A DNA stretch of 64,000 bases from NCBI GenBank assembly GCA_050742535.1, contig JBOGIQ010000001.1, positions 50-64,049 on the forward strand, in the 5' to 3' direction. The notes under the pieces were generated by a model. That model was not told the origin of the DNA, ran no database searches, and worked only from the letters and a program-made list of their open reading frames with translations. The translations under genes were made by a program, and so were the position numbers. Each line of letters opens with the position of its first letter. Position 1 is the stretch's first letter. Source of the DNA: Vicinamibacterales bacterium. Its GTDB lineage: Bacteria; Acidobacteriota; Vicinamibacteria; Vicinamibacterales; UBA2999. Shown here piece by piece: positions 44,068-64,000 of this stretch.

Positions 44068-44125
44068 CGTCGTGGCGCGAACCTTCGGGTTCGCGAGGGC
44101 GAGCCTGACAAGGCTCGCCCCACGG
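44068..44125. repeat. Composite hairpin element, family B
   Basis: CGTGG CGCGAACC-TTC-GGGTTCGCG A GGGCGAGCC-TGACAA-GGCTCGCCC CACG. Confidence 0.85.
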
Positions 44126-44162
44126 CGCGCCACGTGACCGATGTCACAATTGGCGGCGACCC

Positions 44163-45446
44163 GTGTCCTTTCAACAACAGAACGTGGAACCGCTCAATCA
44201 ACTGGTGAACCGGGCACGTCGTGGCGACGTGGCGGCGTACGGCCGGCTCGTGAACGCGACGGAACGCATGGTATTTGGCGTCGCGCTGCGGGTACTGCGA
44301 GACCAAGCGCTGGCCGAAGACGCCGCCCAGGAAACCTTCTTGCGCGCATTCCGGCGCATCGGGGATCTCGGCGAGGACGCCGCATTCCTGACGTGGCTGC
44401 GGAGGATCGCCGTGACCGTCGCCATCAACCTGCGACGTGCGCGGCGGACGACCTTCCTGCGCCTCGACGATGGGGTGGACGTGCCGATCCTCGACGAGAT
44501 CGAGGCGCGCTGGTCCGACGCGCAACGGCTGCAGCTGGCCGCTGCGCTGTTGATCCTGACCCCTGAGGAGCGCCGTCTCTGCGACCGCCGCTACCACGGC
44601 GGCTGGAGTGTCGGCCGCCTGGCACAGGACGCCGGCGTGGACGAAGCGGCGATGCGCAAGCGGCTGCAGCGGGTCCGCGACAAGCTGCGAAAGGACATCG
44701 AGATGTCGGAACAGAGCGAAATCAGGACGGGCCAGTCGCCGCGCGATCTTCCAGGACGGATTGTCGAACTGCTCTCGCGGCCGCAGCTGACCAACCTGCC
44801 GGAAAATCCTGTTGGCGTGGTGACGCAGATCCTGCGCGGCGTGTTCTCGAAGTTTGCGCCCGTGGAGTTGCCGGAATTCGTCGACCTGCCGGCGGCTCGC
44901 GACAGCGTGACGAGCGACGCGATCTATGTCGATGAATCCGAGCTGCATCACGTCGACGATCGCCGCATCCTGCGCTACGACATGACGCTCCCGCTGCTGA
45001 TGACGAAGCGGTACGAAGGCAAGCCGATGAACCTCTGGGTCGAAGGCAAGGCCTATCGGCGCGGAAAGCTCGACGCCACGCATCTCGAAGCGTTCCACCA
45101 GGCGGAGGTCTTTTGGCTGGGCGATCGCGGCGAGGTCGACCCATGGCGGTTGACGACGCTGGTGCTGCAGTCCGTGGACGCGGTGCTGCCCGGTTCAACG
45201 GTGCGGATCGTGCCGACGACGTACTCGATGTGTTCCCAGGCGTGGGACCTGGAAGTCGAGGTCGACGGCCGCCTGCACGAGGTGCTGGCGTGGGGCGTCT
45301 TCACCGACCGGATCGTCCGGCACCTCGGCGCCGATCCGTCGCGGCACGTCGCCGTCGGCGCCGGCTACGGGCTGGAACGGCTTGCCGCGCTGCGCTACGG
45401 GATCGACGACATCCGGAAGATCGAGGCGGCGACGGTCCCGCAGTAG
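44163..45446 (+). CDS. ECF-type sigma-70 factor fused to a PheS-like class II aminoacyl-tRNA-synthetase catalytic core
   Basis: Single 427-aa ORF. Residues 1-185 carry sigma region 2 and region 4 motifs (AEDAAQETFLRAF, FLTWLRRIAVTVAINLRR, LTPEERRLCDRRYHGGWSVGRLAQDAGVDEAAMRKRLQRVRDKLR). Residues 205-427 carry PheS-like motifs (ILRYDMTLPLL, GKAYRRGKLDATHLEAFHQAEV, GAGYGLERLAALRYGIDDIRKI). Confidence 0.8.
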   Translation: MSFQQQNVEPLNQLVNRARRGDVAAYGRLVNATERMVFGVALRVLRDQALAEDAAQETFLRAFRRIGDLGEDAAFLTWLRRIAVTVAINLRRARRTTFLRLDDGVDVPILDEIEARWSDAQRLQLAAALLILTPEERRLCDRRYHGGWSVGRLAQDAGVDEAAMRKRLQRVRDKLRKDIEMSEQSEIRTGQSPRDLPGRIVELLSRPQLTNLPENPVGVVTQILRGVFSKFAPVELPEFVDLPAARDSVTSDAIYVDESELHHVDDRRILRYDMTLPLLMTKRYEGKPMNLWVEGKAYRRGKLDATHLEAFHQAEVFWLGDRGEVDPWRLTTLVLQSVDAVLPGSTVRIVPTTYSMCSQAWDLEVEVDGRLHEVLAWGVFTDRIVRHLGADPSRHVAVGAGYGLERLAALRYGIDDIRKIEAATVPQ

Positions 45447-45855: not shown

Positions 45856-45993
45856 GATCCACCCTCTGATTGCACCGACCAGCGAAGGAATCTTTGCCCC
45901 GACCCGCGAAAGGACCCCTCGCACCGACCCGCGAAGTAACCTCGCACCAACCAGCGAAGTGACTTCGCACCGACCCGCGAAGAAACGTCGCAC
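45856..45993. repeat. Solo array of about 6 family D units (TCGCACCGACC plus short variable hairpin, 22-25 bp each)
   Basis: ...TCGCACCGACCCGCGAAGTAACC TCGCACCAACCAGCGAAGTGACT TCGCACCGACCCGCGAAGAAACG TCGCACC... It fills the whole gap between the glcG stop and the cupin start. Confidence 0.85.
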
Positions 45994-46467
45994 CTATTTG
46001 AGCGCGTTGACCGCCGCCTGCGCCACGACTCCGTCCTGCTGGCTCGTGCCGCCGGACGCCCCGATCGCGCCGACGATCTTCCCGCCCGACACGAGCGGTA
46101 TTCCGCCTTCCACCGGAATGGCGCCGTCGAGGGCGAGAATCCGCAGCCCCTCGCCGCCGGCAGCCAGCGCGTCCTGAAACGCCTTCGTCGGCCGCTTGAA
46201 GCGCGCCGCCGATCGCGCCTTCGACTGCGCGACCTGGACGCTTCCGACCTGCGTGTCGTCCATCTTTTCGAAGTAGACGAGGTCGCCACCGGTATCGACG
46301 ATGGCGATGGCCATGTTCCAGTTGTTCTTGCGCGCCTCGGCGATGGCCGGCGTGGCGATCTTCTTTGCGGTCTCGAGGTTGATGTTCGGTCCGTAGCTCA
46401 TAGTTTGTGAGGCGGCAGGCAGGACGCACGCGAGCGTCGCTGCTGCCGCGAAAAGAAACTGCTTCAT
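45994..46467 (-). CDS. GlcG/HbpS-family (DUF336) heme-binding protein
   Basis: The ORF has a signal peptide. It contains AIAIVDTGGDLVYFEKMD...SKARSAARF...GGIPL..GGKIVGAIGASGG. Confidence 0.75.
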   Translation of the reverse strand: MKQFLFAAAATLACVLPAASQTMSYGPNINLETAKKIATPAIAEARKNNWNMAIAIVDTGGDLVYFEKMDDTQVGSVQVAQSKARSAARFKRPTKAFQDALAAGGEGLRILALDGAIPVEGGIPLVSGGKIVGAIGASGGTSQQDGVVAQAAVNALK

Positions 46468-48006: not shown

Positions 48007-48019
48007 TCGTCTTTGACGC

Positions 48020-48254
48020 TGACCGGTGCGAGGTTGCTGCGCCTGATCAGTGCGATCGTGGGGCGGGCCTTGTCAGGCCCGCCTGGGTCGGTGCGAAGTC
48101 GCTTCGCCTGGTCGGTGCGAGGTGGCCGCGCTGGTCGGTGCGAGGTGGCCGCGCTGGTCGGTTCGCCTGGTTAGTGCGAAGTCGCTTCGCCTGGTCGGTG
48201 CGAGTGTTCCGACTATGGCCCGTTCTAGGGTGCGCCTGGTCGGGGTCCACGATC
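48020..48254. repeat. Family D array (GGTCGGTGCGA orientation, about 7 units) bounded by family B termini GATCGTGG (48054-48061) and CCACGATC (48247-48254)
   Basis: GATCGTGG GGCGGGCC-TTGTCA-GGCCCGCC TGGGTCGGTGCGAAGTCGCTTCGC CTGGTCGGTGCGAGGTGGCCGCG CTGGTCGGTGCGAGGTGGCCGCG ... GGTCGGGGT CCACGATC. It overlaps the last ~10 codons of the four-helix-bundle gene. Confidence 0.85.
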
Positions 48255-48662
48255 ACGGCCGTTACGTCGATCCAAGTGCCTCAGCAGTGACGACAGTGCG
48301 GGAAAGATCCGGCGCAGCAGCGAACGCGCGGGCCTGAGGTCGGCGTCGGATACGTATTCCTTCAGTCGAGCGCTGCGAAAACCGTCCTGCACTTCATTTA
48401 GTGACCGCCGGGCGATGCGGAGAAACTTCGCGAACTCGGGGTCGGTTCCTCCGAAGCCTTCCGCGATATTGCGGCACGCTGAGTCCGCCGCGTCGTCCAG
48501 CTGTGACCTCAGCTTCCAGTCGACATGAAAGCGCTCTCGTTTCGTCAGCTGGAAGACTTCAATGCGGAGCTGGTCCGCCAACTGCCAGACGATCAACTCG
48601 GTGAAGTGCCGCGCAACAGCCACACACGCCGTCGAGCATTCCGCGTACCGCCTGCGGACCAA
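48225..48662 (-). CDS. Four-helix-bundle protein (23S rRNA intervening-sequence protein / Avd-like family)
   Basis: The translation contains HFTELIVWQLADQLRIEVFQLT. It continues through RSQLDDAADSACRNIAEGFG...FLRIARRSLNEVQDGF. Start uncertain (TTG 48662 or the internal GTG). Confidence 0.75.
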   Translation of the reverse strand: MVRRRYAECSTACVAVARHFTELIVWQLADQLRIEVFQLTKRERFHVDWKLRSQLDDAADSACRNIAEGFGGTDPEFAKFLRIARRSLNEVQDGFRSARLKEYVSDADLRPARSLLRRIFPALSSLLRHLDRRNGRDRGPRPGAP

Positions 48663-48711
48663 TAACTTACGGGTGATGTACGCAGAAACCGCAACGCTTG
48701 GCGGTCAAAGA

Positions 48712-49062
48712 GATCGTAGAAATATCGCACCGACCGCGCAGCCTGTTCGCACCGACCGCGAAGTCCCTTCGCACCGCCCCGGCGCAGCCTCTTCGCACCG
48801 ACCGCGAAGCCCGTTCGCACCAACCCGGCGCAGCCTCCTCGCACCGACCGCGAAGCCCAATCGCACCGACCCGGCGCAGCCTCCTCGCACCGACCGCGAA
48901 GCCCAATCGCACCAACCCGGCGCAGCCTCCTCGCACCGACCGCGAAGTCCAATCGCACCAACCCGGCGCAGCCTCCTCGCACCGACCGCGAAGTCGCGTT
49001 CGCACCGACCCCGGCGCAGCCTCCTCGCACCGCCCCGCGTCAGCTTGCTCGCACCTCCCGGT
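48712..49062. repeat. Family D array in inverted orientation (TCGCACCGACC, about 15 units; alternating two subtypes give a 46-bp higher-order period)
   Basis: Units alternate between TCGCACCGACCGCGAAGYCCNN and TCGCACCRACCCGGCGCAGCCTCC. The array begins with GATCGTAG (48712-48719). Its last units overlap the final codons of nrtD. Confidence 0.85.
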
Positions 49063-49894
49063 GCAACACCGTGTCGAGCGCACTCGCCCGCGATTGATGT
49101 GCGTGGTGATCCAGGAAATCAATGACACGCCGCCGGCACGCCTGATACTCCGGATGCGCGAGCACTGCCGCGCGAACCCGGGGACGGGGGAAGGGCACCC
49201 GCAGCACCTCGCCGACGGTCGCTTCCGGACCATCCGTCATCAGGATCAGCCGATCGGCGAGGTAGAGCGCCTCGTCGATGTCGTGCGTCACCATCAGCAC
49301 GGTCGTTCTGAAGCCCTGCCGACGCCCGGACGAGGCCGGGTCCCAGATACGCAGCAGCAGATCCTGAAGCTCGAACCGCGTGAGCGAGTCGAGCTGCGAG
49401 AACGGCTCGTCGAGCAGCAGAAAGCGCGGCTCGACGGCAAGCGCCCGCGCCAGCGAGACGCACTGCTGCGTGCCGAGCGAGAGCTGTGTCGGCAGTTGCG
49501 CGGCTGCGTCGCTGACGCCAACGAGCTCCAGATATTCATCCGCGGCGGCCGCCGCCTCGCGCCGCGTGCGCGGCGTGAGCCCCTGTGAGGCAGCGATCTG
49601 GACGTTCTGCCGCGCCGTGAGCCACGGCAGCAGGCATGGCGCCTGGAAGACGATTGCACGCTCGGGCCCGGGCCCGGTGACTTCCTTGCCGTCGATGACG
49701 ACTCCGCCAAGCGTCGCCCGATCGAGCCCGGCCACGATGGACAGGACGGTCGACTTGCCGCACCCGGAGTGGCCGAGAATGGCGACGAACTCGCCCGCCT
49801 CCACCATCGCGTTGACATCTTTGACGGCGATGAACGGTCCGTCGGGCGTCGGAAAGACGCGGCTTAGTCCGGTGAGTTCGAGTGGCGGAATCAA
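49040..49894 (-). CDS. nrtD: Nitrate/sulfonate/bicarbonate-type ABC transporter ATP-binding protein
   Basis: Walker A GHSGCGKST, signature LSLGTQQ and Walker B LLLDEPFS. It is last in the nrtABCD-like operon. Confidence 0.8.
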   Translation of the reverse strand: MIPPLELTGLSRVFPTPDGPFIAVKDVNAMVEAGEFVAILGHSGCGKSTVLSIVAGLDRATLGGVVIDGKEVTGPGPERAIVFQAPCLLPWLTARQNVQIAASQGLTPRTRREAAAAADEYLELVGVSDAAAQLPTQLSLGTQQCVSLARALAVEPRFLLLDEPFSQLDSLTRFELQDLLLRIWDPASSGRRQGFRTTVLMVTHDIDEALYLADRLILMTDGPEATVGEVLRVPFPRPRVRAAVLAHPEYQACRRRVIDFLDHHAHQSRASALDTVLHREVRAS

Positions 49895-50763
49895 CGGACT
49901 TCCTCCGCGATGGTTCGCAGCTCTCCCGGCCCGATCGTGGCGCGGACATGGTCACGTCCGCGAGGCGAGCCTGGCAAGGCTCGCCCCACGACGGCCTCTG
50001 TCAACGTCGCGATGACATGTGTCCGTACCTGCGCTGCGGCGTCGTCATAGACGAGCTGCGCAGCACTCCTTGGCCGCGGAAGCGGGACCTCGATGGGCGT
50101 GCCCAGCGTGGCGGGCGGGCCGGGCAGGATGGGCACGATCCTGTCGGACAGCAGGATGGCTTCGTCCACGCTGTTCGTAATCATCACCGTCGTCACGCGC
50201 CCGTCGCCCTCGCCGCAGAGGCGCGCCAGCTCGCCCTGGAGCGACTCGCGGGTGAGGGCGTCGAGCGCACCGAGCGGCTCGTCGAGAAACATGACCCGCG
50301 GTTCGGTGGCCAGCGCCCTCGCGATTGCCACGCGCTGACGCATGCCGCCCGACAGCTGTCGTGGACGACGCGCGATCGCATTGCCGAGCCCGACTTTCTC
50401 GAGCGTCCGCAGCGCACGCGTCCGCTGCTCGTCGCGCGACAGTTCCGGAAACGCGGCGCCAACCGCGAGCCGGACATTGTCGAGCGCCGTCAGCCAGGGC
50501 AGCAGCGAATAGTTCTGGAACACGAACGCCGCGTCGCGGCGGATCTCCGTCAGCGGCTCGCCGCCGATGTGGATCGTTCCCGTGTCGGGCGCGGTCAGCC
50601 CGGCCAGCATGCTCAGGAGCGTCGATTTACCGCTGCCCATCGCGCCGACAATGGCGACGAACTCGCCCTGCTCGACGGCAAGCGATACGTTCTGCAGCAC
50701 GTGTCGTGTGCCGCCCTTCGAGGAAAACGACTTCGAAACCCCGGTCACCTCGATGAACGGCAT
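49891..50763 (-). CDS. nrtC: Nitrate ABC transporter ATP-binding protein
   Basis: The translation from the ATG at 50763 begins MPFIEVTGVSKSF... Walker A GAMGSGKST, signature LSGGMRQR and Walker B MFLDEPLG. The C-terminal region contains a family B element in frame. Confidence 0.8.
   Translation of the reverse strand: MPFIEVTGVSKSFSSKGGTRHVLQNVSLAVEQGEFVAIVGAMGSGKSTLLSMLAGLTAPDTGTIHIGGEPLTEIRRDAAFVFQNYSLLPWLTALDNVRLAVGAAFPELSRDEQRTRALRTLEKVGLGNAIARRPRQLSGGMRQRVAIARALATEPRVMFLDEPLGALDALTRESLQGELARLCGEGDGRVTTVMITNSVDEAILLSDRIVPILPGPPATLGTPIEVPLPRPRSAAQLVYDDAAAQVRTHVIATLTEAVVGRALPGSPRGRDHVRATIGPGELRTIAEEVR
49933..49992. repeat. Composite hairpin element, family B
   Basis: GATCGTGG CGCGGAC-ATGGTCA-CGTCCGCG A GGCGAGCC-TGGCAA-GGCTCGCC CCACGA, translated (minus strand) as VVGRALPGSPRGRDHVRATIG. 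Confidence 0.85.
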
Positions 50764-51527
50764 CACGCGGCCCGAAGCCTGGCTTCGGCCATCCCCATCA
50801 GCCGATCCAGAGCAAAGCCGACGATGCCGATGGTCAGGATCGCCAGCAGGATGTGCGCGTAGACGAGGCTGTTGTATTCCTGCCACAGGAAGCCGCCGAC
50901 GCCCGGCGTTCCTGTCAGCATCTCGCTGGCAACGATGACGAGCCAGGCGATGCCGAGGCTGAGCCGATAGCCGGTGAACATGTAGGGGAGCGTCGCCGGG
51001 ATGATGATCCGCGTGAAGGTCGTCAGCTTCGAGAGCCGCAGAACCCGGGCGACGTTCCAGTAGTCCTGCGGGATCGCGCGAACCCCGACCATCGTGTTGA
51101 TCACCGTCGGCCACATCGAGCAGACCGCAATGGCGAAGAGCGCCGCCGGCTCGGACTTCTGGAACAGCACCAGTCCCAGCGGCAGCCAGGCCAGCGGCGA
51201 GATCGGCCGCAGAATCTGCATGATCGGATCGAACATGCGGGTCAGCGTCGACGACACGCCCAGCAGGAACCCGAGCGGCGTGGCAATCGCGATCCCCAGC
51301 AGGAAACCACGCGCCACCCGCAGCAGGCTGTAGTAGGCGAGCCGGACGATGCCCTGATCCATCTCGCCGCGCTTCGCCAGCGGCTCGACGATGTAGATCT
51401 TGCTTTCCTCCCACGTGCGGGCGGGCGACGGGAGGTCGGGCACCGCTTTGCTTGCGCCCCACCAGACCAGGAGCGCAAGCCCGACACCGCACAACGGCAA
51501 CAACATATTGACAAGACGTCTCAGCAA
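50763..51527 (-). CDS. nrtB: Nitrate ABC transporter permease
   Basis: ABC permease with the EAA-like region (RLSKLTTFTRIIIPATLPYMFTG). The TTG start at 51527 is preceded by GGAGG. An ATG 7 codons downstream is the alternative. Confidence 0.8.
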   Translation of the reverse strand: MLRRLVNMLLPLCGVGLALLVWWGASKAVPDLPSPARTWEESKIYIVEPLAKRGEMDQGIVRLAYYSLLRVARGFLLGIAIATPLGFLLGVSSTLTRMFDPIMQILRPISPLAWLPLGLVLFQKSEPAALFAIAVCSMWPTVINTMVGVRAIPQDYWNVARVLRLSKLTTFTRIIIPATLPYMFTGYRLSLGIAWLVIVASEMLTGTPGVGGFLWQEYNSLVYAHILLAILTIGIVGFALDRLMGMAEARLRAA

Positions 51528-51545
51528 ACAGCCTCCGTTTTCTCA

Positions 51546-51609
51546 ACTACCCAGGCAACCCAGGCAACCCAGGCAACCCAGGCAACCCAGGCAACCCAGC
51601 TACCCAGCC
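51546..51609. repeat. Nonamer tandem repeat CCCAGGCAA (about 7 units), single arm
   Basis: CTACCCAGGCAACCCAGGCAACCCAGGCAACCCAGGCAACCCAGGCAACCCAGCTACCCAGCC. It spans the nrtA stop (51600-51602) and ends near the nrtB ribosome-binding site. Confidence 0.9.
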
Positions 51610-52841
51610 ACGCTGTGAATCGGGAACGACTTTGCGTACTTCTCAGGATCCCTGCCGTCGAACACGCCGTCGAAGAGCGTGATTTTCTGTTCCTCGGCGA
51701 CGCTGACCTTGACGCCGAGCTCTTTCATCGCCTCGAGGTACATGTCCGGACGCATCACGCGCTTCGGAATGGCGTTGTAATCCGGCGCGCCCTTCGTGAA
51801 GCCCCATCGCCGCAGCTGTGTCAGCCACCACTTCCCGTAGATCTGATGCGGGTAGTTGGTGTTGCGCTGCGAATAGATCATGTAGAACGGGTCCTGTTCG
51901 GAGCGGCCGTCGCCGTAGTCGTACTTGCCCATCAAGCGCTCGAGGATGATGGCCGGCGGGCAATTGATGTAGGTCGGCCGCGCGATCACCTCGGCAAACT
52001 TCGGCCGGTTTTCCATCTTGTCGAGATCGACGCTGGCCAGGTGCAGCGCTTTCAACACCGCCTTCACCGCTTTGGGGTTCTTCGTGGCGAAGTCCTCCGT
52101 GAACGCGCAGACCTTTTCCGGGTGGTCCTTCCACATCTGCTGTGTCGTGACGGCGGTGAAGCCGATGCCGTCCTCGATGGCGCGGTTGTTCCACGGCTCG
52201 CCGACGCAGAAGCCGTCCATCTTGTCGACCTTCATGTTCGCCACCATCTGCGCGGGCGGGATGGTGATCAGGCTGACGTCCTTGTCCGGATGAATCCCTC
52301 CCGAGGCGAGCCAGTAGCGGATCCACATCGCGTGGGTTCCCGGCGGGAAGGTCATCGCAAACGTCAGCGGCTCGCCGCTTGCCTTCGCTTTGTCGGCCAA
52401 TGGCTTTATCTGCGCGGGTTGTCTGACGCCCGCCTGTTTGAGCTTGTTGTTCAGCGTGATGGCCTGGCCGTTCCGGTTCAGCACCCACGGAATCACCATC
52501 GGCTTCACCGGCGAGCCGGCCAGCCCCATCGTCGAGGCGATGGGCATGCCGATCAGCATGTGCGTCGCGTGGTTCTCGCCGAGCGAGAGCTTGTCGCGGA
52601 TCACCGCCCACGATGCTTCCTTGGAGATCGTCGAGTCGATGCCGAACTTCTTGAAGTAGCCGAGCTCGTGCGCCATGACAATCGGTGCGCAGTCGGTGAG
52701 GGCGATCATCCCGAACCGCATCGCTTTGACTTCGGGCGAATCGTCCGCGTAGACGGAGCCGACCCACCCGGCAGGCAGCCCCGACATGAGCGTGGCAGCG
52801 GAACTGACGCCTGCCGCTTTGATAAACGTTCGTCTCTTCAT
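51600..52841 (-). CDS. nrtA: Nitrate ABC transporter substrate-binding protein (CmpA/NrtA family)
   Basis: Twin-arginine signal MKRRTFIKAAG. FGMIALTDCAPIVMAHELGYFKKFG is typical of NrtA. Confidence 0.8.
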   Translation of the reverse strand: MKRRTFIKAAGVSSAATLMSGLPAGWVGSVYADDSPEVKAMRFGMIALTDCAPIVMAHELGYFKKFGIDSTISKEASWAVIRDKLSLGENHATHMLIGMPIASTMGLAGSPVKPMVIPWVLNRNGQAITLNNKLKQAGVRQPAQIKPLADKAKASGEPLTFAMTFPPGTHAMWIRYWLASGGIHPDKDVSLITIPPAQMVANMKVDKMDGFCVGEPWNNRAIEDGIGFTAVTTQQMWKDHPEKVCAFTEDFATKNPKAVKAVLKALHLASVDLDKMENRPKFAEVIARPTYINCPPAIILERLMGKYDYGDGRSEQDPFYMIYSQRNTNYPHQIYGKWWLTQLRRWGFTKGAPDYNAIPKRVMRPDMYLEAMKELGVKVSVAEEQKITLFDGVFDGRDPEKYAKSFPIHSVAG

Positions 52842-52844
52842 CGA

Positions 52845-54206
52845 CTATTTCTCCGCAAGGAATACGTACGTGAGCATCACGTAGGGGTGGCTGTACGACG
52901 CGCCGGGCGTCGCTTCCTTCAGGAACCCGCCAGGGACGATGTGGGCGTACCCGGCCGCGGCCTGAAGCTGTGGCGTCAGCGCGCGGCTGACCTGGAAGTC
53001 GATCTCCTGGCCAACGTGTCGGTCGGCGGCGCCGGTTGCGACCCGCGCGAGCACCGCGCTGCCGGCGTTGTAGATGGCGTCGTTCGCCTCCGCCAGCCAC
53101 CACGAGTGGTAATTGGTCGTGAACGGCAGCCCTTTCAGCGGCGTGATTTCGAATCCCGCCCGGGCGTGATGCACGTTCTTCCACCCGATCTGATCGGCGA
53201 GGCCGTACTTATCGTGAGGCGTCGGATACAGCTGGTCGAACGTGCCGCGGACGTTGTCGGCCGGGTCCTCGTCGCCCGACGCGAAGTTGTATTCGCCGGT
53301 CAGTTTCACCGCGCCCGGGCCGGGGAGCGATTCGCGCAGCTGCCAGTGACCGGCCCACGCGCTGAGGTCATCCGTCCCGAGAGAGCCGCGCTGCAGCGCC
53401 ATTTCCACGCCGTAGTCGAGGCGCGCAGGGAGCTTCCCGGCGACCCGAACGCCGGTGGTCGTCTGCGTCAGTGTGCCGAGTCCGCCTGCTTCCGCGCGCA
53501 GGTTCACGTCGCGCTTGAACAGAACGTAGGGCTCGACCGTGGCGCCAGGAATCAGCTTCGCGGTTGTGCCGTAGACGCCTGCGAACCGGTTGCCATTACC
53601 GCTCTTGTCGAACTCGCCGTCGAGGATGCGCACGACGGACGCGGCGAAGACATCGACGGCGAAGGTTTTCGTTCGAACGGTGGTTTTGACACCGTCGAAC
53701 GTGCGGGCGGCGTTGAGCCAGCTGACGTGACCGATCAGGCGCTGTTCGCCGTAGACGAGTTCCTGCCGTCCGGCACGGACTGTAACCGGACCCGTTGACG
53801 AGCCCACGTCCGCGAAACCCATTCGCAGATCGATCGGCGCCTTGAACGGGGCTCCAGTCGGGCCCACTGTTTTCTTCGTGACGCGCGCGTCCTGCACCTG
53901 CGCTTGGAAGCTCAGTTGCTTCGACGGCGTCACGGTCGCGTTCAGACGCAGGCGGCTCAGCCAGTAGAGATCCTCACGCGTGGAGTTGAAGCCGAGCCCG
54001 TCGAATCCTTCGAGACGCTCGCGAAACTCGCCGCGCAGACGGAACCACTGAGGAAGAAGCTCGTTGGCGCGATTGAGGACGGGAGGTTTTGCGGCGACGC
54101 CTGGCGGTGCGGGTGCAGGCGGCTGCTGGGCGGCGGCGTTCAGCGGAACTGCGATGGATACGACAGTCAGACAGGCGCGGATCGCGCGGAGAGATCGATG
54201 GACCAT
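52845..54206 (-). CDS. Alginate-export-family outer-membrane porin
   Basis: The ATG at 54206 is preceded by GAAGGAG with a 5-nt spacer. Signal peptide present. WFRLRGEFRERLE and a beta-barrel-like repeat pattern. It is first in the nrt operon. Confidence 0.7.
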   Translation of the reverse strand: MVHRSLRAIRACLTVVSIAVPLNAAAQQPPAPAPPGVAAKPPVLNRANELLPQWFRLRGEFRERLEGFDGLGFNSTREDLYWLSRLRLNATVTPSKQLSFQAQVQDARVTKKTVGPTGAPFKAPIDLRMGFADVGSSTGPVTVRAGRQELVYGEQRLIGHVSWLNAARTFDGVKTTVRTKTFAVDVFAASVVRILDGEFDKSGNGNRFAGVYGTTAKLIPGATVEPYVLFKRDVNLRAEAGGLGTLTQTTTGVRVAGKLPARLDYGVEMALQRGSLGTDDLSAWAGHWQLRESLPGPGAVKLTGEYNFASGDEDPADNVRGTFDQLYPTPHDKYGLADQIGWKNVHHARAGFEITPLKGLPFTTNYHSWWLAEANDAIYNAGSAVLARVATGAADRHVGQEIDFQVSRALTPQLQAAAGYAHIVPGGFLKEATPGASYSHPYVMLTYVFLAEK

Positions 54207-54709
54207 GACGCTCCTTCTGTGTGCGATCGCACCGGCGCGGGTGGCGCGACGGTGGACCACCATGAGTGCGCCGAACGGGGCGCCGCAGTGAGGGCGTCAT
54301 GGCCTCAAGAGTCGAACGGGGATTCGTGCGGCGACGAAGCCGCGCCAGATCGACGAGCAAACGCTGTTCCGATGAAATCTGTGCGCAAAACGACGCGTCG
54401 CGGAATGGAGAGCAACAACTCCGTGGCTATGTCCACGCGTTTTCAACATTTATGTCGGGTGTATCCGCCAGGCGTGCGCTCGACCGGCTCCGGACGATCC
54501 GCGCGTCGAGCGCGGGGCCTTGTCAGCGTGATTCTTCGGCAACGGAATCATTCAAATATGTCGGCGCGATCGCGGTGAACCACACAAACGTCTGGCCTCA
54601 CCCTATTGCTCTCCGCGCCGCGGGTGTGTATCTTCGTTGTCGTGATGCGCGCCCGGACGCGCGCATCGATGACCTGCAGGCCCCGCCGCCTCTGTGACTT
54701 CCGCGTGTG

Positions 54710-54731
54710 GCTTCCGGCTTAAGCCGGAAGC
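54710..54731. repeat. Hairpin related to family E (GCTTCCGGC-TTAA-GCCGGAAGC)
   Basis: Perfect 9-bp stem in the nas leader region, flanked by CTTCCGC (54698-54704) and GCGGAAG (54742-54748). Confidence 0.8.
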
Positions 54732-54968
54732 TGCGAAAGGTGCGGAAGCGACGAGTTCAACGCTCCCAGTCGAGCCAGAGCTGTTTCTCCGACTGTTGGG
54801 GGCGCTGTGCCTTTACCGCTTCTCGAACGAGCCACACCCGACGGCCTCACATTTGCGTTAACGAAACGCAGTGCGGGTGCAAGCGCCCGGCATCTGAATC
54901 GCGCCGATATCAGCACTCCGCCTGCGTTGCGTCGCCGCTACGGCGAGACGCCCGCCGACGGCGGGCTC

Positions 54969-56468
54969 ATGCCGACGCGAGCGCCGTCGGCGGGCGAGCA
55001 GTACCGCTTCCACTTCGACATGACGAAGTGCATCGGTTGCAAGTGCTGCGTGGTGGCGTGCAACGAGCAGAACGGAAACCCGGCGGCAATCAACTGGCGG
55101 CGTGTTGGCGAGATCGAAGGCGGATGGTTCCCGAATACCACGCGCTCATATCTGTCGATGGGATGCAACCACTGTGTCGAGCCGTCGTGTCTCGAGGGCT
55201 GCCCGGTGGATGCCTACAGCAAGGATCCGGTGACCGGCATCGTGCGCCACAGCGCGGATGCGTGCATCGGCTGTCAGTACTGCACCTGGAACTGCTCGTA
55301 TGGGGTGCCGCAATACAACGCCGATCGTGGCGTCGTCGGCAAGTGCGACATGTGCCACGGCCGCCTTTCGCTTGGCCAGGCTCCGGCCTGTGTCAGCGCG
55401 TGTCCTGAGGGCGCCATCGCCATCGAGATCGTCAACATCGACGAGTGGCGGACCGCTGTGGTGGCAACGGACGTCCCCGAGCCCAGTCGAGGAATCACGT
55501 TCGCCGGCCTGCCCATCGCTGACGGCAGTCTGTCCACCACGCGAATCACCATGCCGGCGGACCTCGCGCCCAACACCAAGCCGCGCGATATCACCCACGT
55601 CAGGCCCGAACATCCGCACTGGCCGCTGGTGGTGATGACCGTGCTGACGCAGCTGTCGGTGGGCGCGTTCACGACGATCTGGCTGCTCCAGCTCGTTGGC
55701 GCCTCGTCGGGGCTCGGCGTCGCGGCGATGGCTTCTCTGCTCGTGGGCGCGCTCGCGTTGAACGCCTCGACGCTCCATCTCGGTCGTCCCGTGCATGCCT
55801 ACCGTGCGCTGCGGATGTGGCGGCGATCGTGGCTCAGCCGCGAAGTGCTTCTCTTCACGAGTTTCTCCCTCGTGGCCGGACTCTACGCAGCGCTGCTCTG
55901 GTTCGGTGGTGGCACCCCTGAAGGGGTGCCCTACGTGACGGGTGGCATGAGCGGGCGGCTGACAACAGCAGTGGGAGCGCTCACCGTTGCTCTCGGCATT
56001 GCGGGCGTCACCGCAAGCGCATGCATCTATCGCGTTCCATCACGTCCGGCCTGGAATACCCGCTACACGCTGCTCCAGTTCAACCTGACGGGTGCGCTGC
56101 TCGGCCCGCTGTTCGCGATGGCTGTTGGTGTTGGTGATCACCAGTGGCTCGCGATTGCAGCGGCGACGATGGCCGGCGCCCAGTTCGTGCTCCTGGCCGT
56201 CCGCTTCCTGCGTTGCATTGCATCGGACAGCCTCGAGCTGAAAGGAACGGCCCGGCTGCTCTCTACGGTATTTGCGAAGCACCTGGTCGCGCGAGGTGTC
56301 CTGCTGGCCGCCGGCGCCATTGTCCTACCCCTGATCGTCGCTCCGCCCGCGATCGCGTTGGCGTTGGCGGTGGGCGCGGAAATCCTCGGCCGCTATCTGT
56401 TCTTCGTCAGCGTCGTTCCGAAGCACATGGCGACGCCGTACGTCCCGGTGGAAGGCGAGGCCGCATGA
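54969..56468 (+). CDS. Fusion of a 4Fe-4S ferredoxin (DmsB-like) with a DmsC-like membrane anchor
   Basis: The cluster motifs are CIGCKCCVVAC, CNHCVEPSCLEGCP, CIGCQYCTWNC and CDMCHGR...C..ACP. About 8 hydrophobic segments follow. The start is uncertain (ATG 54969, or upstream GTG 54807). Confidence 0.7.
   Translation: MPTRAPSAGEQYRFHFDMTKCIGCKCCVVACNEQNGNPAAINWRRVGEIEGGWFPNTTRSYLSMGCNHCVEPSCLEGCPVDAYSKDPVTGIVRHSADACIGCQYCTWNCSYGVPQYNADRGVVGKCDMCHGRLSLGQAPACVSACPEGAIAIEIVNIDEWRTAVVATDVPEPSRGITFAGLPIADGSLSTTRITMPADLAPNTKPRDITHVRPEHPHWPLVVMTVLTQLSVGAFTTIWLLQLVGASSGLGVAAMASLLVGALALNASTLHLGRPVHAYRALRMWRRSWLSREVLLFTSFSLVAGLYAALLWFGGGTPEGVPYVTGGMSGRLTTAVGALTVALGIAGVTASACIYRVPSRPAWNTRYTLLQFNLTGALLGPLFAMAVGVGDHQWLAIAAATMAGAQFVLLAVRFLRCIASDSLELKGTARLLSTVFAKHLVARGVLLAAGAIVLPLIVAPPAIALALAVGAEILGRYLFFVSVVPKHMATPYVPVEGEAA
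55911..55935. repeat. REP-type hairpin, family C
   Basis: GGCACCCC TGAA GGGGTGCC CTACG with a perfect 8-bp stem, translated GTPEGVPYV. Confidence 0.9.
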
Positions 56469-61182: not shown

Positions 61183-61577
61183 CCTTTCAGTGGATTCGGG
61201 TGACGCCGACCGGAAACATTCCGCCTCGCGAGGGACGGGCGGTGCTGATCGGCGATCGCGAGATCGCGCTCTTCAATCTTGGAGACGAGTTCCTCGCCAC
61301 CGACAACCAGTGTCCGCACAAGGGCGGTCCACTGTGCGACGGCATCGTCACCGGCACGTCCGTCGTCTGCCCGCTGCACGCGTGGAAGGTCAATCTCGCG
61401 ACGGGCGAGGTCGAGCGGCCCGCGCATGGCAAGGAGCACTGCGTGACGACGTATCCGACGCGCATCGAGGATGGCGTGGTGCTGATCGGATTGCCGGCGG
61501 CACGCGAAGGCACCCCTGAAGGGGCGCCCTACGTAGGGCACCCTTTCAAGGGTGCCGATCCAGAGGCCGCGGCATGA
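61179..61577 (+). CDS. nirD: Nitrite reductase small subunit (Rieske-like)
   Basis: CPHKGGPLCDGIV...VVCPLHAWKV. The ATGA overlaps nirB. The last ~25 residues are encoded by two family C hairpins. Confidence 0.85.
   Translation: MTFQWIRVTPTGNIPPREGRAVLIGDREIALFNLGDEFLATDNQCPHKGGPLCDGIVTGTSVVCPLHAWKVNLATGEVERPAHGKEHCVTTYPTRIEDGVVLIGLPAAREGTPEGAPYVGHPFKGADPEAAA
61509..61556. repeat. Two family C hairpins in inverted orientation sharing a CTACGTAG centre
   Basis: GGCACCCC TGAA GGGGCGCC CTACGTAG GGCACCC TTTCAA GGGTGCC. Confidence 0.85.
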
Positions 61578-62830
61578 GCCTGAAAGGCTTCACGCGCGCC
61601 GGGCACTTCCCGACACTGATCGCCGCGTTGCTCTACTTCGACGTCAGCTTCATGACGTGGGTAATGCTCGGACCTCTCGCCCCGTTTCTGCGCGACGAGC
61701 TTGGGCTCTCCTCCACGCAGCAGGGACTGCTGACGGCCATTCCGCTGCTCGGCGGCTCGCTGTTCCGCCCCGTGATGGGGATGCTCGCCGACCGGATCGG
61801 CGGCCGCCGCACCGGGTTGATCGGCATGGTGCTGACTCTCCTCACGCTGCTCGGCGGCTGGCAACTCGCCACAAGCGTCGCACACTTCTACATCCTCGGA
61901 TTCTTCCTCGGCCTCGCCGGCGCGAGTTTCGCCGTGGCGCTGCCGCTGGCGAGCCGCTGGTATCCCCCCGAATATCAAGGGCTCGCGATGGGAATCGCCG
62001 GCGCCGGCAACTCCGGGACGCTGATGGCGACGCTGTTCGCGCCACGCCTGGCCGAAGCGTTCGGGTGGTCCGCCACGTTCGGGATCGCGATGCTGCCGGT
62101 GGCGTCGGTGTTTCTGCTGTTTGCGTGGCTGGCGAAGGACAGTCCGAAGCGCGCCGCGCCGACGTCGATCGGCGCCTACGGCGCCGTGCTGCGCGAGCAC
62201 GACACGCTGTGGCTCTCGTTCCTGTACAGCCTGACGTTCGGCGGCTTCGTCGGGTTTGCCAGCTTTCTGACGACGTTCTTTCACGAGCAGTATCAGGTGT
62301 CGCGAGTGTCGGCAGGCGATTTCACGACGCTGGTCGTCGTCTCGGGAAGCCTGCTGCGGCCCGTCGGCGGCTGGCTGGCCGATCGTGTCGGCGGCTACCG
62401 CCTGCTGGTGCTGCTGCTGGCGGGCGGCGCGGTGTGCATCGGATCAGTGGCGATGCTGCCGCACGTGCGCGCGGCGGTGGCCCTGCTGTTCGTCGGCATG
62501 GGCCTGCTGGGAATGGGCAACGGCGCGGTGTTCCAGCTGGTACCGCAGCGCTTTCCCGAGCGCATCGGCATCGTCACCGGCGTGGTCGGGGCGGCGGGCG
62601 GGCTCGGCGGCTTCTTCCTGCCGTCGGTGCTTGGCGCGGTGCGCGAGCTGACCGGCTCGTACGCGCTGGGATTGTTCGGCTGCGCGGGCGTGTTCGTTGC
62701 CGGCACCGTCGTGCTGCTGGAACTCGGCGCGCGGTGGTCGCTGCGCTGGGACGTGCACGCGGTCAGACAGGCCGGCGTCTATTCATACCGGAGCGCATTA
62801 TTCGGCGTTGACGAGGAACGCGCCGCGTGA
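61574..62830 (+). CDS. narK: MFS nitrate/nitrite transporter (NNP family)
   Basis: 418 aa with 12 TM-like segments. GPLAPFLRDELGLS and GGSLFRPVMGMLADRIGGRR patterns. Confidence 0.85.
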   Translation: MSLKGFTRAGHFPTLIAALLYFDVSFMTWVMLGPLAPFLRDELGLSSTQQGLLTAIPLLGGSLFRPVMGMLADRIGGRRTGLIGMVLTLLTLLGGWQLATSVAHFYILGFFLGLAGASFAVALPLASRWYPPEYQGLAMGIAGAGNSGTLMATLFAPRLAEAFGWSATFGIAMLPVASVFLLFAWLAKDSPKRAAPTSIGAYGAVLREHDTLWLSFLYSLTFGGFVGFASFLTTFFHEQYQVSRVSAGDFTTLVVVSGSLLRPVGGWLADRVGGYRLLVLLLAGGAVCIGSVAMLPHVRAAVALLFVGMGLLGMGNGAVFQLVPQRFPERIGIVTGVVGAAGGLGGFFLPSVLGAVRELTGSYALGLFGCAGVFVAGTVVLLELGARWSLRWDVHAVRQAGVYSYRSALFGVDEERAA

Positions 62831-62841
62831 CGCCCCCACGT

Positions 62842-62897
62842 TTTTGCATTTTGCATTTTGCATTTTGAATTTTGCATTCTGCATTCTGCATTTCATA
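62842..62897. repeat. AT-rich heptamer tandem repeat TTTTGCA (about 8 units), single arm
   Basis: TTTTGCATTTTGCATTTTGCATTTTGAATTTTGCATTCTGCATTCTGCATTTCATA, between the narK stop and the GAF-ANTAR start. Confidence 0.9.
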
Positions 62898-62905
62898 GGC
62901 CACCC

Positions 62906-63671: not shown

Positions 63672-63780
63672 GGTGCGAGGCGTCTTCGCTGGTCGGTGCG
63701 AGGAGGCTTCGCCAAGTCGGTGCAAGCAGGCTGCGCCGGGTGGGTGCAAGCACGCTGACGCCTGGTCGGTCCAAGCACGC
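63672..63780. repeat. Family D array (GGTCGGTGCGA orientation, about 4.5 units)
   Basis: GGGTGCGAGGCGTCTTCGCTGGTC GGTGCGAGGAGGCTTCGCCAAGTC GGTGCAAGCAGGCTGCGCCGGGTG GGTGCAAGCACGCTGACGCCTGGTC GGTCCAAGC. It lies directly upstream of the second four-helix-bundle gene. Confidence 0.8.
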
Positions 63781-63781
63781 G

Positions 63782-64000
63782 TCATTTCACGAACTGATCA
63801 TCTGGCAGCTGGGAGGCAAAATTCGCCAGCACGTTTTCGCGCTGACGAAAAAGCATCCCGTCGCGGCTGATTTCACGCTGCGATCTCAACTCGACGACGC
63901 GGCAGAGTCAGTGTGTCGGAATATCGCTGAGAGATTCGCGTGCAAGAGCGACAGGGAGTCTGCGAAGTGTGGCCGAATCGTACGCCGTTCAAGGCAACCT
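63782..64000 (+). CDS. Four-helix-bundle protein (23S rRNA IVS / Avd-like family), partial at the right edge
   Basis: The frame starting at 63782 reads SFHELIIWQLGGKIRQHVFALTKKHPVAADFTLRSQLDDAAESVCRNIAERFA..., about half identical to the 48225-48662 protein by eye. The start codon is not identified (candidate GTG 63740). It is not in the ORF track. Confidence 0.6.

What the first reader, a model, noticed from the sequence alone, without database searches (positions are those of the whole stretch)
48020..49062. Four-helix-bundle (23S-rRNA-IVS / Avd-like) gene embedded between inverted arrays of 22-25-bp hairpin units
**Architecture.** The gene at 48225-48662 (minus strand) is flanked by two arrays of the same unit, a conserved GGTCGGTGCGA followed by a short variable 6-bp-stem hairpin.
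- The left array (48020-48254) reads GGTCGGTGCGA on the plus strand and has about 7 units.
- The right array (48712-49062) reads the reverse complement, TCGCACCGACC. It has about 15 units with a 46-bp two-unit higher-order period.

A transcript spanning the locus could therefore pair the two arrays into a long imperfect stem with the ORF in the loop. That is the architecture of rRNA intervening sequences, which RNase III excises. Here it occurs outside any rRNA gene.

**Other copies in the window.**
- The same polarity recurs at the right edge: an array in GGTCGGTGCGA orientation at 63672-63780 lies directly upstream of a second, roughly half-identical four-helix-bundle gene at 63782-64000.
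- A solo array fills the glcG-cupin gap at 45856-45993.

**Background and inference.** Proteins of this family are homologous to the Avd accessory protein of diversity-generating retroelements. No reverse transcriptase is present in the window. The element may be a selfish or RNA-processing module.
Basis: partly seen in the sequence, partly recalled or inferred. Interest (0 to 1): 0.65.

Follow-up and report, generated by a model that had tools for sequence, protein, structure and literature searches.

The report
Four-helix-bundle gene inside tandem-repeat foldback arms
A small gene of the "23S rRNA intervening-sequence / Avd" family sits between two complementary arms made of short tandem repeats, and I found the same layout around relatives of this gene in at least four bacterial phyla, so it looks like a widespread and apparently undescribed cassette related to the stem-loop inserts that RNase III cuts out of ribosomal RNA.

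Summary
A PF05635/TIGR02436 four-helix-bundle (4HB) gene (48225-48623, minus strand) lies between inverted arrays of GGTCGGTGCGA units.

- **Source.** The window is chromosomal DNA of a Vicinamibacterales (Acidobacteriota) bacterium.
- **The gene is always in arrays.** In 22 of 24 related loci the gene has a G-rich array upstream and its complement just after the stop codon. When the unit sequence differs, both arms change together.
- **Arrays are not always with the gene.** Among arrays found by pattern alone, 22 of 94 have a 4HB gene on the side they point to, and 0 of 113 on the other side. Arms occur as convergent pairs (27 of 62), never divergent (0 of 82).
- **Variable content.** Pairs can be empty or hold other cargo, such as Uma2 or a toxin-antitoxin pair at this same chromosomal site. 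In a close relative the cassette is flipped.
- **Other phyla.** 15 of 18 plasmid-borne PF05635 genes show purine-rich 7-8-nt repeats upstream and the complement downstream.

Best reading: an IVS-like foldback cassette whose arms pair in RNA and are probably bound by the basic pentameric protein. That mechanism is inferred, not shown.

The parts
48712..49062 (-). 5' arm. About 15 units reading GGTCGGTGCGA plus a 12-nt spacer on the gene's strand, with a 46-nt two-unit higher-order period. The outermost degenerate units overlap the last ~7 codons of the nrtD-like ABC ATPase gene (49040-49894).
48624..48711 (-). Leader between the arm and the start codon. It is conserved among relatives and contains the sigma-54-type -24/-12 motif GGTACGCGGAATGC at 48649-48636, 26 nt before the GTG start. 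This predicts a nearly leaderless mRNA that starts downstream of the 5' arm.
48225..48623 (-). Four-helix-bundle gene (PF05635 / TIGR02436): 132 aa, pI 10.7, GTG start. The last ~10 codons run into the 3' arm.
48020..48254 (-). 3' arm. About 8 units reading TCGCACCGACC on the gene's strand (GGTCGGTGCGA on the + strand), complementary to the 5' arm.
63672..63780 (+). 5' arm of a second cassette (units GGTGCGA / GGTGCAA / GGTCCAA). It abuts the ORF directly, with no leader or promoter motif.
63782..64000 (+). Second four-helix-bundle gene, cut by the window end. It is 55% identical to the main copy, with nearest relative L006 (67%). Several family-invariant residues are changed, so it may be decaying.
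45856..45993 (-). Solo array of the same unit (about 6 units) between the HbpS/GlcG-like gene and the next gene on the minus strand. No partner arm, and no self-structure beyond chance.

Best explanation
The locus is one copy of an IVS-like 'foldback' cassette. A gene for a small, basic protein of the Avd / S23p four-helix-bundle family is enclosed by two complementary arms. Each arm is a tandem array of a short unit, and the G/purine-rich arm comes first on either strand.

**Shown here.**
- The architecture is conserved around this gene family within Vicinamibacterales and recurs, with unrelated unit sequences, in Cyanobacteriota, Gemmatimonadota and Alphaproteobacteria.
- The two arms always change together.
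- The arms recombine at the DNA level. The cassette is flipped in a close relative, and the same chromosomal slot holds other cargo elsewhere.
- Gene-less arm pairs exist.

**Inferred.**
- Any transcript that crosses the cassette carries both arms and folds into a long imperfect stem with the ORF looped out. This is the arrangement that RNase III excises from 23S rRNA, and it would make the insertion tolerable inside operons.
- The pentameric protein binds the repeated arms. The basis is homology with Avd, which grips an RNA stem-loop with all five protomers.
- In Vicinamibacterales the gene is also transcribed from its own sigma-54-type promoter inside the loop, as a nearly leaderless mRNA that carries only the 3' arm.
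For: **Gene-array association.**
- 22 of 24 related loci have arrays on both sides with the same polarity, the same period on both arms, and correlated arm lengths (rho 0.73, p 1e-4). The upstream arm ends a median 126 nt before the start codon. The downstream arm starts a median 4.5 nt after the stop.
- Arms co-vary: GGTGCGA/TCGCACC, GGTCCAA/TTGGACC, GAACGGAC/GTCCGTTC, GGTGCT/AGCACC.
- Ascertained by array alone, a 4HB gene lies on the pointing side in 22 of 94 arrays and on the back side in 0 of 113. Convergent partners occur in 27 of 62, divergent in 0 of 82.

**RNA pairing.** MFE is -581 against -484 +/- 6 kcal/mol for shuffled arrays. Cofolding the arms gives -396 against -261 for the arms folded separately.

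**Other phyla.**
- 15 of 18 plasmid PF05635 genes have purine-rich 7-8-nt repeats upstream and their complement at the stop codon, with a median of ~4 units per arm.
- In 50 kb of Nostoc punctiforme pNPUN01, the only strong heptamer arrays flank the two 4HB genes, each with its own private repeat.
- A similar pattern holds for Anabaena sp. 90 and Gemmatirosa.

**Literature.**
- The Coxiella IVS has a 28-bp terminal stem cut by RNase III and tandem heptamers before the S23p ORF (PMC4990558).
- The Avd pentamer binds an 11-bp stem-loop, with flipped bases held between protomers (bioRxiv 10.1101/2023.10.23.563531).

**Protein.** Mean pI is 10.2. The fold matches 2GSC, 2RLD, 4DWL and 8UB7.

**DNA-level events.** The cassette is inverted in L090/L058. 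Uma2 or Xre-RES-type cargo sits at the same site in L086/L087.
Against: - No expression or processing data exist. RNase III cleavage and protein binding are inferred only.
- Arm duplex stability shows no sense-versus-antisense bias (13 of 22, p 0.5). Nothing therefore singles out RNA over DNA as the pairing species.
- The internal promoter motif means the gene's own transcript lacks the 5' arm in this lineage.
- The 11-nt core is conserved across species while the spacer varies. This points to sequence-specific recognition rather than pairing alone.
- About 77% of arrays have no 4HB gene next to them, and other cargo occurs, so the arms do not need this gene in cis.
- Exceptions exist: Pseudanabaena galeata has arrays in direct orientation, and L157 has none.
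Confidence: 0.5

Rival explanations
1. DNA-level site arrays. The units are double-stranded binding sites (iteron or enhancer-like) for a sequence-specific protein, either the 4HB protein itself or an enhancer-binding protein serving the sigma-54 promoter. The arms are complementary only because the sites are placed in inverted orientation on the two sides.
For: - An 11-nt core is conserved across many species, while the 12-nt spacer is free to vary.
- The upstream arm ends about 100 nt before the -24 element, a typical enhancer distance.
- There is no strand-specific RNA signature.
- GAFTGA enhancer-binding proteins occur on two array-bearing contigs.
- Single arrays have no self-structure.
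Against: - In cyanobacteria (by general knowledge, a phylum that lacks sigma-54) the arms abut the start and stop codons, leaving no room for a promoter, yet the layout is the same.
- Arrays occur inside operons and as gene-less hairpins.
- Enhancer sites downstream of the stop codon have no obvious role.
- The rule 'convergent, never divergent' (27 of 62 against 0 of 82) is not predicted by binding sites alone.
Confidence: 0.2
2. Foldback-type mobile element. The arms are terminal inverted repeats recognised by a recombinase or transposase encoded elsewhere. The 4HB gene is merely the commonest passenger, and gene-less pairs are MITE-like derivatives.
For: - There are many copies, and most homologues sit on ~1-kb contigs, as expected if assemblies break at repeats.
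- The cassette occupies different genomic contexts.
- Cargo varies at one site.
- Empty pairs exist.
- Arms are built of tandem sub-repeats of variable length, as in Drosophila FB elements (my recollection).
Against: - No transposase is associated, and no target-site duplication was identified.
- The cassette has stayed at the same chromosomal site across species whose proteins are only 43-68% identical.
- Cargo exchange and inversion are explained by homologous recombination between arms.
- In Nostoc each 4HB paralogue has a private repeat that is not dispersed elsewhere in 50 kb.
Confidence: 0.15
3. Chance neighbourhood. The arrays are generic intergenic repeats (REP-like) of this genome, and the 4HB gene merely lies between two of them.
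For: - Most arrays are not next to a 4HB gene.
- One solo array lies in the window.
- The genome carries other unrelated tandem-repeat hairpins.
Against: - 22 of 24 relatives have arrays on both sides with strict polarity.
- 22 of 94 arrays have the gene on the pointing side, against 0 of 113 on the back side.
- The same layout appears with unrelated repeats in other phyla.
Confidence: 0.03
4. Remnant or satellite of a diversity-generating retroelement. The gene is an Avd serving a reverse transcriptase encoded elsewhere, and the arrays are template-related repeats.
For: - The fold and family are shared with Avd.
- The protein is basic, like Avd (PMC5758913).
Against: - No reverse transcriptase lies in the window or in the flanks of 24 related loci.
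- The arrays are short tandem units, not a template/variable repeat pair.
- The bona fide DGR avd on Anabaena sp. 90 pANA02 lacks complementary arms, while the stand-alone 4HB gene on the same plasmid has them.
Confidence: 0.02

Closest known systems
23S rRNA intervening sequences carrying an S23p ORF (Coxiella burnetii, Leptospira; PMC4990558)
   Same: - The ORF belongs to the same protein family.
- The ORF is enclosed by complementary termini that form a stem.
- In Coxiella, purine-rich tandem heptamers precede the ORF, and the stem is 28 bp (four heptamers).
   Different: - This cassette is not in an rRNA gene. It lies between protein-coding genes.
- The arms are 235-350 nt arrays of a 23-nt unit, not a ~28-bp stem.
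- It carries its own promoter-like motif.
- The protein is well conserved here, whereas the Coxiella ORF is reported as decaying.
- RNase III excision is not shown here.
Avd, the accessory protein of diversity-generating retroelements (PDB 4DWL, 8UB7)
   Same: - Both have the four-helix-bundle fold (TM about 0.7-0.8).
- Both are basic.
- Avd is a pentamer that binds an RNA stem-loop.
   Different: - There is no reverse transcriptase and no template/variable repeats.
- Sequence identity to Avd is only about 10%.
- The closest solved relatives are the stand-alone proteins XCC0516 (2GSC) and BT_0352 (2RLD).
REP / RAYT (REPIN) systems
   Same: The gene is always flanked by inverted copies of a repeat that is far more numerous elsewhere in the genome.
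   Different: - The gene is not an HUH/Y1 transposase.
- The repeats are tandem arrays rather than single palindromes.
Foldback (FB) transposable elements of Drosophila (from memory)
   Same: - Long inverted arms are built from short tandem sub-repeats.
- Arm length varies between copies.
- Copies exist with or without a central coding segment.
   Different: - This is bacterial.
- No transposase and no target-site duplication were found.
- Movement is not demonstrated.
Intergenic heptanucleotide tandem repeats of cyanobacteria and Beggiatoaceae (STRR from memory; TAACTGA repeats, PMC4679880)
   Same: Both are short (7-nt) tandem repeats in intergenic DNA, often directly upstream of start codons, with no known function.
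   Different: In what I could read, those repeats were described as direct repeats without a partner arm and were not linked to PF05635 genes.

Membership tests
PF05635 / TIGR02436 four-helix-bundle (S23p, 'IVS protein') family | Profile score above the curated cut-off | tested here: met
   PF05635 scores 72.1 bits against a cut-off of 33.8. TIGR02436 scores 67.3 against 24. The second copy scores 43.9 and 37.4 bits.
PF05635 / TIGR02436 four-helix-bundle (S23p, 'IVS protein') family | Four-helix-bundle fold like XCC0516 / BT_0352 | tested here: met
   The AlphaFold2 model has pLDDT 89.8 and four long helices. Foldseek top hits are 2GSC (TM 0.73-0.86) and 2RLD, followed by Avd.
PF05635 / TIGR02436 four-helix-bundle (S23p, 'IVS protein') family | Homopentameric ring | not testable with these tools
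   Known only for the homologues 2GSC and 4DWL (PMC4990558).
23S rRNA intervening sequence (IVS) | Inserted in a helix of a 23S rRNA gene | tested here: not met
   Rfam finds no family in the window. The flanks are an ABC ATPase gene and a DUF4136 gene.
23S rRNA intervening sequence (IVS) | Complementary termini forming a stem that encloses the ORF | tested here: met
   The stem is much longer here and built of tandem units.
23S rRNA intervening sequence (IVS) | Excision by RNase III | not testable with these tools
   Needs RNA end mapping.
Diversity-generating retroelement | Adjacent reverse transcriptase | tested here: not met
   No RT domain in the scanned ORFs of the window or in the called genes of L001-L005.
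Diversity-generating retroelement | Template/variable repeat pair differing at adenines | not tested
   Only tandem and inverted repeats were examined. Nothing resembling such a pair was seen.
REP / RAYT | Flanking gene is a Y1/HUH transposase | tested here: not met
   The gene is PF05635.
Foldback-type transposable element | Inverted arms made of short tandem sub-repeats, variable between copies, with gene-less copies | tested here: met
Foldback-type transposable element | Evidence of transposition (target-site duplication, empty sites, transposase) | tested here: inconclusive
   Cargo differs at one site and the cassette is inverted in a relative. No duplication, empty site or transposase was identified.
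Sigma-54-dependent promoter | GG-N10-GC elements matching TGGCACG-N4-TTGCW at a fixed distance from the gene | tested here: met
   GG[CT]A[CT][GA]-N4-NTGC occurs in 19 of 26 loci at -26 to -36 (mode -27) from the start codon. My estimate of the chance expectation is about 0.007 per locus.
Sigma-54-dependent promoter | Organism encodes sigma-54 and an enhancer-binding protein | tested here: inconclusive
   GAFTGA enhancer-binding proteins occur on two array-bearing contigs, L046 and L076. No rpoN was seen in the DNA at hand.

The most novel reading that the evidence does not exclude
PF05635 proteins are ring-shaped readers of their own flanking tandem repeats. About four to five units per arm would match the five protomers, as TRAP matches its GAG repeats. 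Under this reading, the gene plus its complementary repeat arms is a single ancient, self-contained element found across bacteria. It would unify the ORF-bearing rRNA intervening sequences, many of the unexplained intergenic heptamer repeats of cyanobacteria and other phyla, and the long arrays of Vicinamibacterales. The gene-less hairpins would be its relics.
Probability: 0.3. Interest if true: 0.85.

Novelty: new variant of a known kind. Interest (0 to 1): 0.7.

Why it matters
The PF05635 family is very common, has solved structures, and has had no assigned function outside DGRs for about thirty years. Short intergenic heptamer repeats are likewise common and unexplained.

A fixed, cross-phylum pairing of the two gives both a testable hypothesis: a pentameric nucleic-acid binder and its cognate repeats. 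It also suggests where ORF-bearing rRNA intervening sequences came from.

Nostoc punctiforme offers a ready specificity experiment, because two paralogues on one plasmid each have a private repeat.

Practically, these arms break short-read assemblies, flip, and exchange cargo. They therefore mark small hotspots of genome variation in abundant soil Acidobacteriota.

Tried and rejected
- **Rfam.** The whole window gave nothing at gathering threshold.
- **Exact-sequence look-up.** The 145-aa ORF was not on record. The start codon was wrong; homologues start 13 codons further in.
- **Per-unit hairpins.** Single arrays fold no better than shuffles. Rejected.
- **Strand-specific RNA selection.** I compared sense and antisense duplex energy of the arms in 22 loci and found no bias. 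The test cannot separate RNA-level from DNA-level pairing.
- **Arms as Rho-loading (C-rich, G-poor) tracts.** The idea was that these tracts are masked only when the G-rich arm is transcribed first. The 3' arm has C>G in 24 of 29 loci, with a median C/G of 2.0. About six Vicinamibacterales loci are unskewed. I kept this only as speculation about the 'never divergent' rule.
- **Upstream arm as an NtrC-type enhancer.** The core resembles a GGTGCA half-site, from memory. The same architecture exists, with unrelated units, in cyanobacteria, which by general knowledge lack sigma-54. Demoted to a rival.
- **IHF-like site in the leader.** It is present in only some loci. Not pursued.
- **HEPN-like reading of the conserved CRNIAEGF motif.** Not pursued. 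The fold search gives only the S23p/Avd family.
- **Protein-motif co-variation within Vicinamibacterales.** This is suggestive only. The three GGTCCAA-type cassettes (L006, L020 and the window's second copy) have related proteins. However, GGTGCGA is shared by proteins down to about 40% identity.
- **Literature.** Searches for PF05635, TIGR02436, 'S23 ribosomal', STRR, Avd-like and foldback found no description of this architecture. Papers in subscription journals were not searchable.
Full report
**1.

The sequence at 48020-49062 is as described.
- The motif GGTCGGTGCGA, allowing one mismatch, occurs 24 times in the window against 5.2 +/- 2.4 expected.
- Tandem Repeats Finder reports a 46-nt, 6.7-copy array at 48724-49032 with 91% matches. 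It also reports 23-24-nt arrays at 48086-48203, 45872-45994 and 63691-63780.
- The two arrays around the gene are inverted and complementary: 46 nt at 78% and many 25-nt stretches at 88%.
- The ORF between them is a clear member of PF05635 (72.1 bits, cut-off 33.8) and TIGR02436 (67.3 bits, cut-off 24).
- Homologues are 120-132 aa and begin at the position of the GTG at 48623, so that is the likely start.
- The right-edge ORF is a second family member, 55% identical.
- Rfam finds no RNA family in the window.
- Pfam scans of the plausible genes show ordinary chromosomal genes and no reverse transcriptase.

**2. Where the window comes from**

A scan of species-representative genomes with an alignment of the protein returned 22 loci. 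All are from Acidobacteriota MAGs, mostly labelled Vicinamibacterales. One of them, L007, shares 89% nucleotide identity over the neighbouring ABC ATPase gene and has a 94-95% identical 4HB protein.

The region 49-63.7 kb of the window is a nitrate-assimilation locus. It holds an NrtABCD-like transporter, a porin, nasA, nirBD, an MFS transporter and a GAF-ANTAR regulator. The two 4HB cassettes sit at its two ends, both pointing outward.

**3. The gene-array association is real and polar**

I oriented every related locus with the gene on the + strand.
- GGTGCGA occurs within 500 nt upstream in 18 of 24 loci. The reverse complement is essentially never upstream.
- TCGCACC occurs downstream in 17 of 24, and GGTGCGA almost never does.
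- The apparent exceptions have the same architecture with a different unit, and the unit is changed on both sides together:
  - GGTCGGTCCAA / TTGGACCGAC in L006 and L020.
  - GTGAACGGAC / GTCCGTTCAC in L024.
  - GGTGCT / AGCACC in L025 and L026.
- By Tandem Repeats Finder, 22 of 24 loci carry an array on each side. One of the other two (L007) is cut by a contig end. The other (L021) lacks a complementary downstream array.
- The period is the same on the two arms (8, 9, 13 or 20-24 nt).
- Arm lengths correlate (Spearman 0.73, p 1e-4).
- The upstream arm ends a median 126 nt before the start codon. The downstream arm begins a median 4.5 nt after the stop, sometimes inside the last codons.
- Most of the 505 homologues in the protein collection sit on contigs of about 1 kb, as expected if assemblies break in the arms.

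**4. The arrays are a wider family than the gene**

I scanned metagenome contigs for two adjacent units and obtained 120 loci with 159 arrays.
- An array 'points' toward the side where a cassette interior would lie. Of 94 arrays with at least 700 nt of sequence on that side, 22 have a 4HB gene there. Of 113 with room on the other side, none does.
- Arrays with 1.5 kb of room have an opposite-orientation partner on the pointing side in 27 of 62 cases. They never have one on the back side (0 of 82). The two arms are 22 to 1399 nt apart.
- Some pairs enclose nothing (L115, L081). Others enclose unrelated small genes.

The picture is that the gene is always in arrays, but arrays are mostly without the gene. 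This resembles REP/RAYT or autonomous/non-autonomous element pairs.

**5. DNA-level dynamics at this very site**

Several loci are syntenic with the window.
- In L090 and L058 the flanks are collinear with the window at 84-85% identity. The central 717 nt (leader plus gene, window 48801-48090) is inverted. This is the expected product of recombination between the inverted arms, and it leaves the polarity rule intact.
- In L086 the same slot, directly after the ABC ATPase gene and between a G-rich and a C-rich arm, holds a Uma2-family nuclease gene.
- In L087 the slot holds an Xre/MbcA/ParS-type antitoxin gene followed by a truncated ORF that looks like a RES toxin by eye but has no Pfam hit.

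The arms therefore bracket a variable slot.

**6. A promoter inside the cassette**

The ~100-130 nt between the upstream arm and the start codon is conserved among relatives. In 19 of 26 loci it contains GG[CT]A[CT][GA]-N4-NTGC at -26 to -36 from the start codon, most often at -27.
- This matches the sigma-54 -24/-12 consensus (TGGCACG-N4-TTGCW, from established knowledge). It places the predicted start 1-3 nt before the start codon, which would give a nearly leaderless mRNA.
- By my estimate, chance would give about 0.007 such matches per locus.
- Two array-bearing contigs encode GAFTGA enhancer-binding proteins. No rpoN was in the DNA at hand.
- If the promoter is real, the gene's own transcript lacks the 5' arm. 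Only transcripts reading in from the neighbouring operon would contain both arms.
- The second copy, at the window's right edge, lacks this leader and has changes at family-invariant residues. It may be decaying.

**7. RNA folding**

For the sense strand of 48010-49070 the minimum free energy is -581 kcal/mol. With both arrays dinucleotide-shuffled it is -484 +/- 6, and with one array flipped it is -527.
- 144 of 351 upstream-arm bases pair with the downstream arm.
- The two arms cofold at -396, against -261 for their separate folds.

But this is what any inverted repeat gives.
- Across 22 loci the sense and antisense versions of the arm duplex are equally stable (13 of 22, p 0.5). There is thus no G:U-type evidence for selection on one transcript.
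- Single arrays have no structure beyond chance (z = -0.07 and -1.4).

**8. The architecture recurs in other phyla**

A tblastn search of a PF05635 protein (XCC0516) against plasmids found family members in Cyanobacteriota, Gemmatimonadota, Alphaproteobacteria and Bacteroidota. I read 18 of these loci.

Fifteen have a purine-rich tandem repeat of 7-8 nt upstream and its complement at or just after the stop codon. Examples:

| Organism | Upstream unit | Downstream unit |
|---|---|---|
| Gemmatirosa | GAGGGCAG | CTCCTGCC |
| Picosynechococcus | AGGAGATA | ATCTCCTA |
| Calothrix | AGGGTGT | CTACACC |
| Nostoc sp. C052 | GGGAACA | CTGTTCC |
| Azospirillum | CAGAGGACGGATGA | TCCGTCCTCTGTCT |

- The median is about four units per arm.
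- In many cyanobacterial copies the upstream repeat ends 2-5 nt before the ATG and contains GGAG. There both arms must be in the mRNA.
- In 50 kb of Nostoc punctiforme pNPUN01 (35 genes), the only strong heptamer arrays flank the two 4HB genes. Each has its own private repeat, and a Uma2 gene in the same stretch has none.
- On Anabaena sp. 90 pANA02 the stand-alone 4HB gene has the arms. The bona fide DGR avd has only a one-sided repeat.
- Exceptions: Pseudanabaena galeata has arrays on both sides in direct orientation. Nostoc 7120 has a downstream array only, next to an IS. Pseudanabaena 7367 has none.
- The genes often sit inside operons, co-oriented with their neighbours: cas6-4HB-cas4 twice, and cmr2-4HB-cmr3 once.

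**9. Link to what is known**

- The Coxiella burnetii IVS is bordered by inverted repeats forming a 28-bp stem. RNase III cuts that stem in the middle. Three to four tandem heptamers (GACAGAT) lie just upstream of the S23p ORF (PMC4990558). Twenty-eight base pairs is four heptamers, the same size as the arms of the plasmid cassettes.
- Avd, the DGR relative, is a positively charged pentameric barrel. All five protomers contact an 11-bp RNA stem-loop, and flipped-out bases insert between protomers (bioRxiv 10.1101/2023.10.23.563531).
- The proteins here are basic (mean pI 10.2).
- The AlphaFold2 model (pLDDT 89.8) matches XCC0516, BT_0352 and Avd.
- I found no paper that describes complementary tandem-repeat arms around PF05635 genes outside rRNA. 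Intergenic heptamer repeats themselves are known and unexplained (PMC4679880).

**10. Interpretation**

Shown:
- A conserved cassette consisting of a G/purine-rich tandem-repeat arm, a 4HB gene and a complementary arm.
- Co-variation of the arms.
- Strict 'purine arm first' polarity.
- Inversion and cargo exchange at the DNA level.
- Gene-less versions.
- Recurrence across phyla.

Inferred:
- Pairing of the arms in read-through RNA.
- RNase III processing as in rRNA IVSs.
- Binding of the arms by the pentameric protein.
- Sigma-54 dependence of the internal promoter.

The conservation of an 11-nt core with a free spacer, and the private repeats of paralogues, argue that a sequence-specific reader is involved and not pairing alone. 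The encoded protein is the obvious candidate.

Why divergent pairs never occur is unexplained. One possibility is that a C-rich arm transcribed first would load Rho. This has only partial support (C>G in 24 of 29 3' arms).

**11. Verdict**

The finding is real, and it is not ordinary.

I file the cassette as a new variant of a known kind: an IVS-like element outside rRNA with tandem-array arms. It cannot be filed as an rRNA IVS, a DGR, a REP/RAYT system or a proven transposon, because a defining feature of each was tested and not met, or could not be shown.

Noticed in passing
window 7778-7860, 10090-10159, 18013-18099, 58667-58732: These are gene-less hairpins made of short tandem repeats, with the purine-rich arm first. 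Examples are (GGGATCA)4 / (CCCGATC)4 and (GGAGATA)n / CCTCCTATCTCC. They fold with z = -3 to -6. One sits in the trpE-trpG spacer. Another lies inside the 3' tail of the nasA reading frame, 15 nt before the nirB start. They resemble the arms of 4HB cassettes from other phyla and may be empty versions.
   Followed up: partly
window 34237-34345: Three copies of a 39-nt unit contain the hairpin GGTCCGCCTGAAGGCGGAC, the last copy inverted. Together they fold very stably (-77 kcal/mol, z = -10). This is a REP-like element inside or beside the aldehyde:ferredoxin oxidoreductase gene region.
   Followed up: partly
window 23197-23234, 51549-51607, 62842-62893: One-armed short tandem repeats lie directly upstream of start codons: (CTGAAGA)5, (ACCCAGGCA)6.7 on the + strand before the nrt permease gene, and (TTTTGCA)7 before the GAF-ANTAR gene. 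They are similar in kind to the intergenic heptamer repeats reported for Beggiatoaceae and cyanobacteria.
   Followed up: no
window 44109-45446 (+): One ORF combines a Sigma-70 region 2 domain with a class II aminoacyl-tRNA synthetase (PheS-like) core domain. This is an unusual fusion.
   Followed up: no
window 49040-63670: A complete nitrate-assimilation locus (ABC transporter, porin, nasA, nirBD, MFS, GAF-ANTAR) is bracketed by the two 4HB cassettes in opposite orientation, both pointing outward.
   Followed up: partly
window 6667-7656, 9493-10131, 12571-13275, 14315-15904: These are genes typical of tetrahydromethanopterin/methanofuran-linked C1 metabolism (MCH cyclohydrolase, PTPS, 4-HFC-P synthase, a DUF6513/pterin-binding protein), here in an acidobacterial chromosome.
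   Followed up: no
L150 1189-1548; L153 986-1354; L155 983-1339: In cyanobacterial plasmids the 4HB cassette sits inside CRISPR-cas operons, co-oriented with the cas genes. It lies between cas6 and cas4 of type I-D loci in two genera, each with a different repeat unit. It lies between cmr2 and cmr3 in Picosynechococcus.
   Followed up: partly
L086 222-944; L087 2-730: At the chromosomal site that holds the 4HB gene in the window, other Vicinamibacterales-like contigs carry different cargo between the same kind of arms. L086 carries a Uma2-family nuclease gene. L087 carries an Xre/MbcA/ParS antitoxin gene plus a truncated RES-like ORF. L086 also has a -24/-12-like motif (GGGCACGCAACTCGCA) before its cargo.
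   Followed up: partly
L161 2403-2575, 11186-11308, 20526-20617: The Gemmatirosa plasmid has gene-less 9-mer hairpins, such as (CACGGAGGA)3 / (TCCTCCGTG)3. Several are followed by a (CGCGACATCT)n array. The second repeat is unexplained.
   Followed up: no
L162 4137-4176: A (TTCATCCTG)4.4 tandem repeat fills the 85-nt gap between the avd and reverse-transcriptase genes of a bona fide DGR on Anabaena sp. 90 pANA02. No complementary partner was seen.
   Followed up: no
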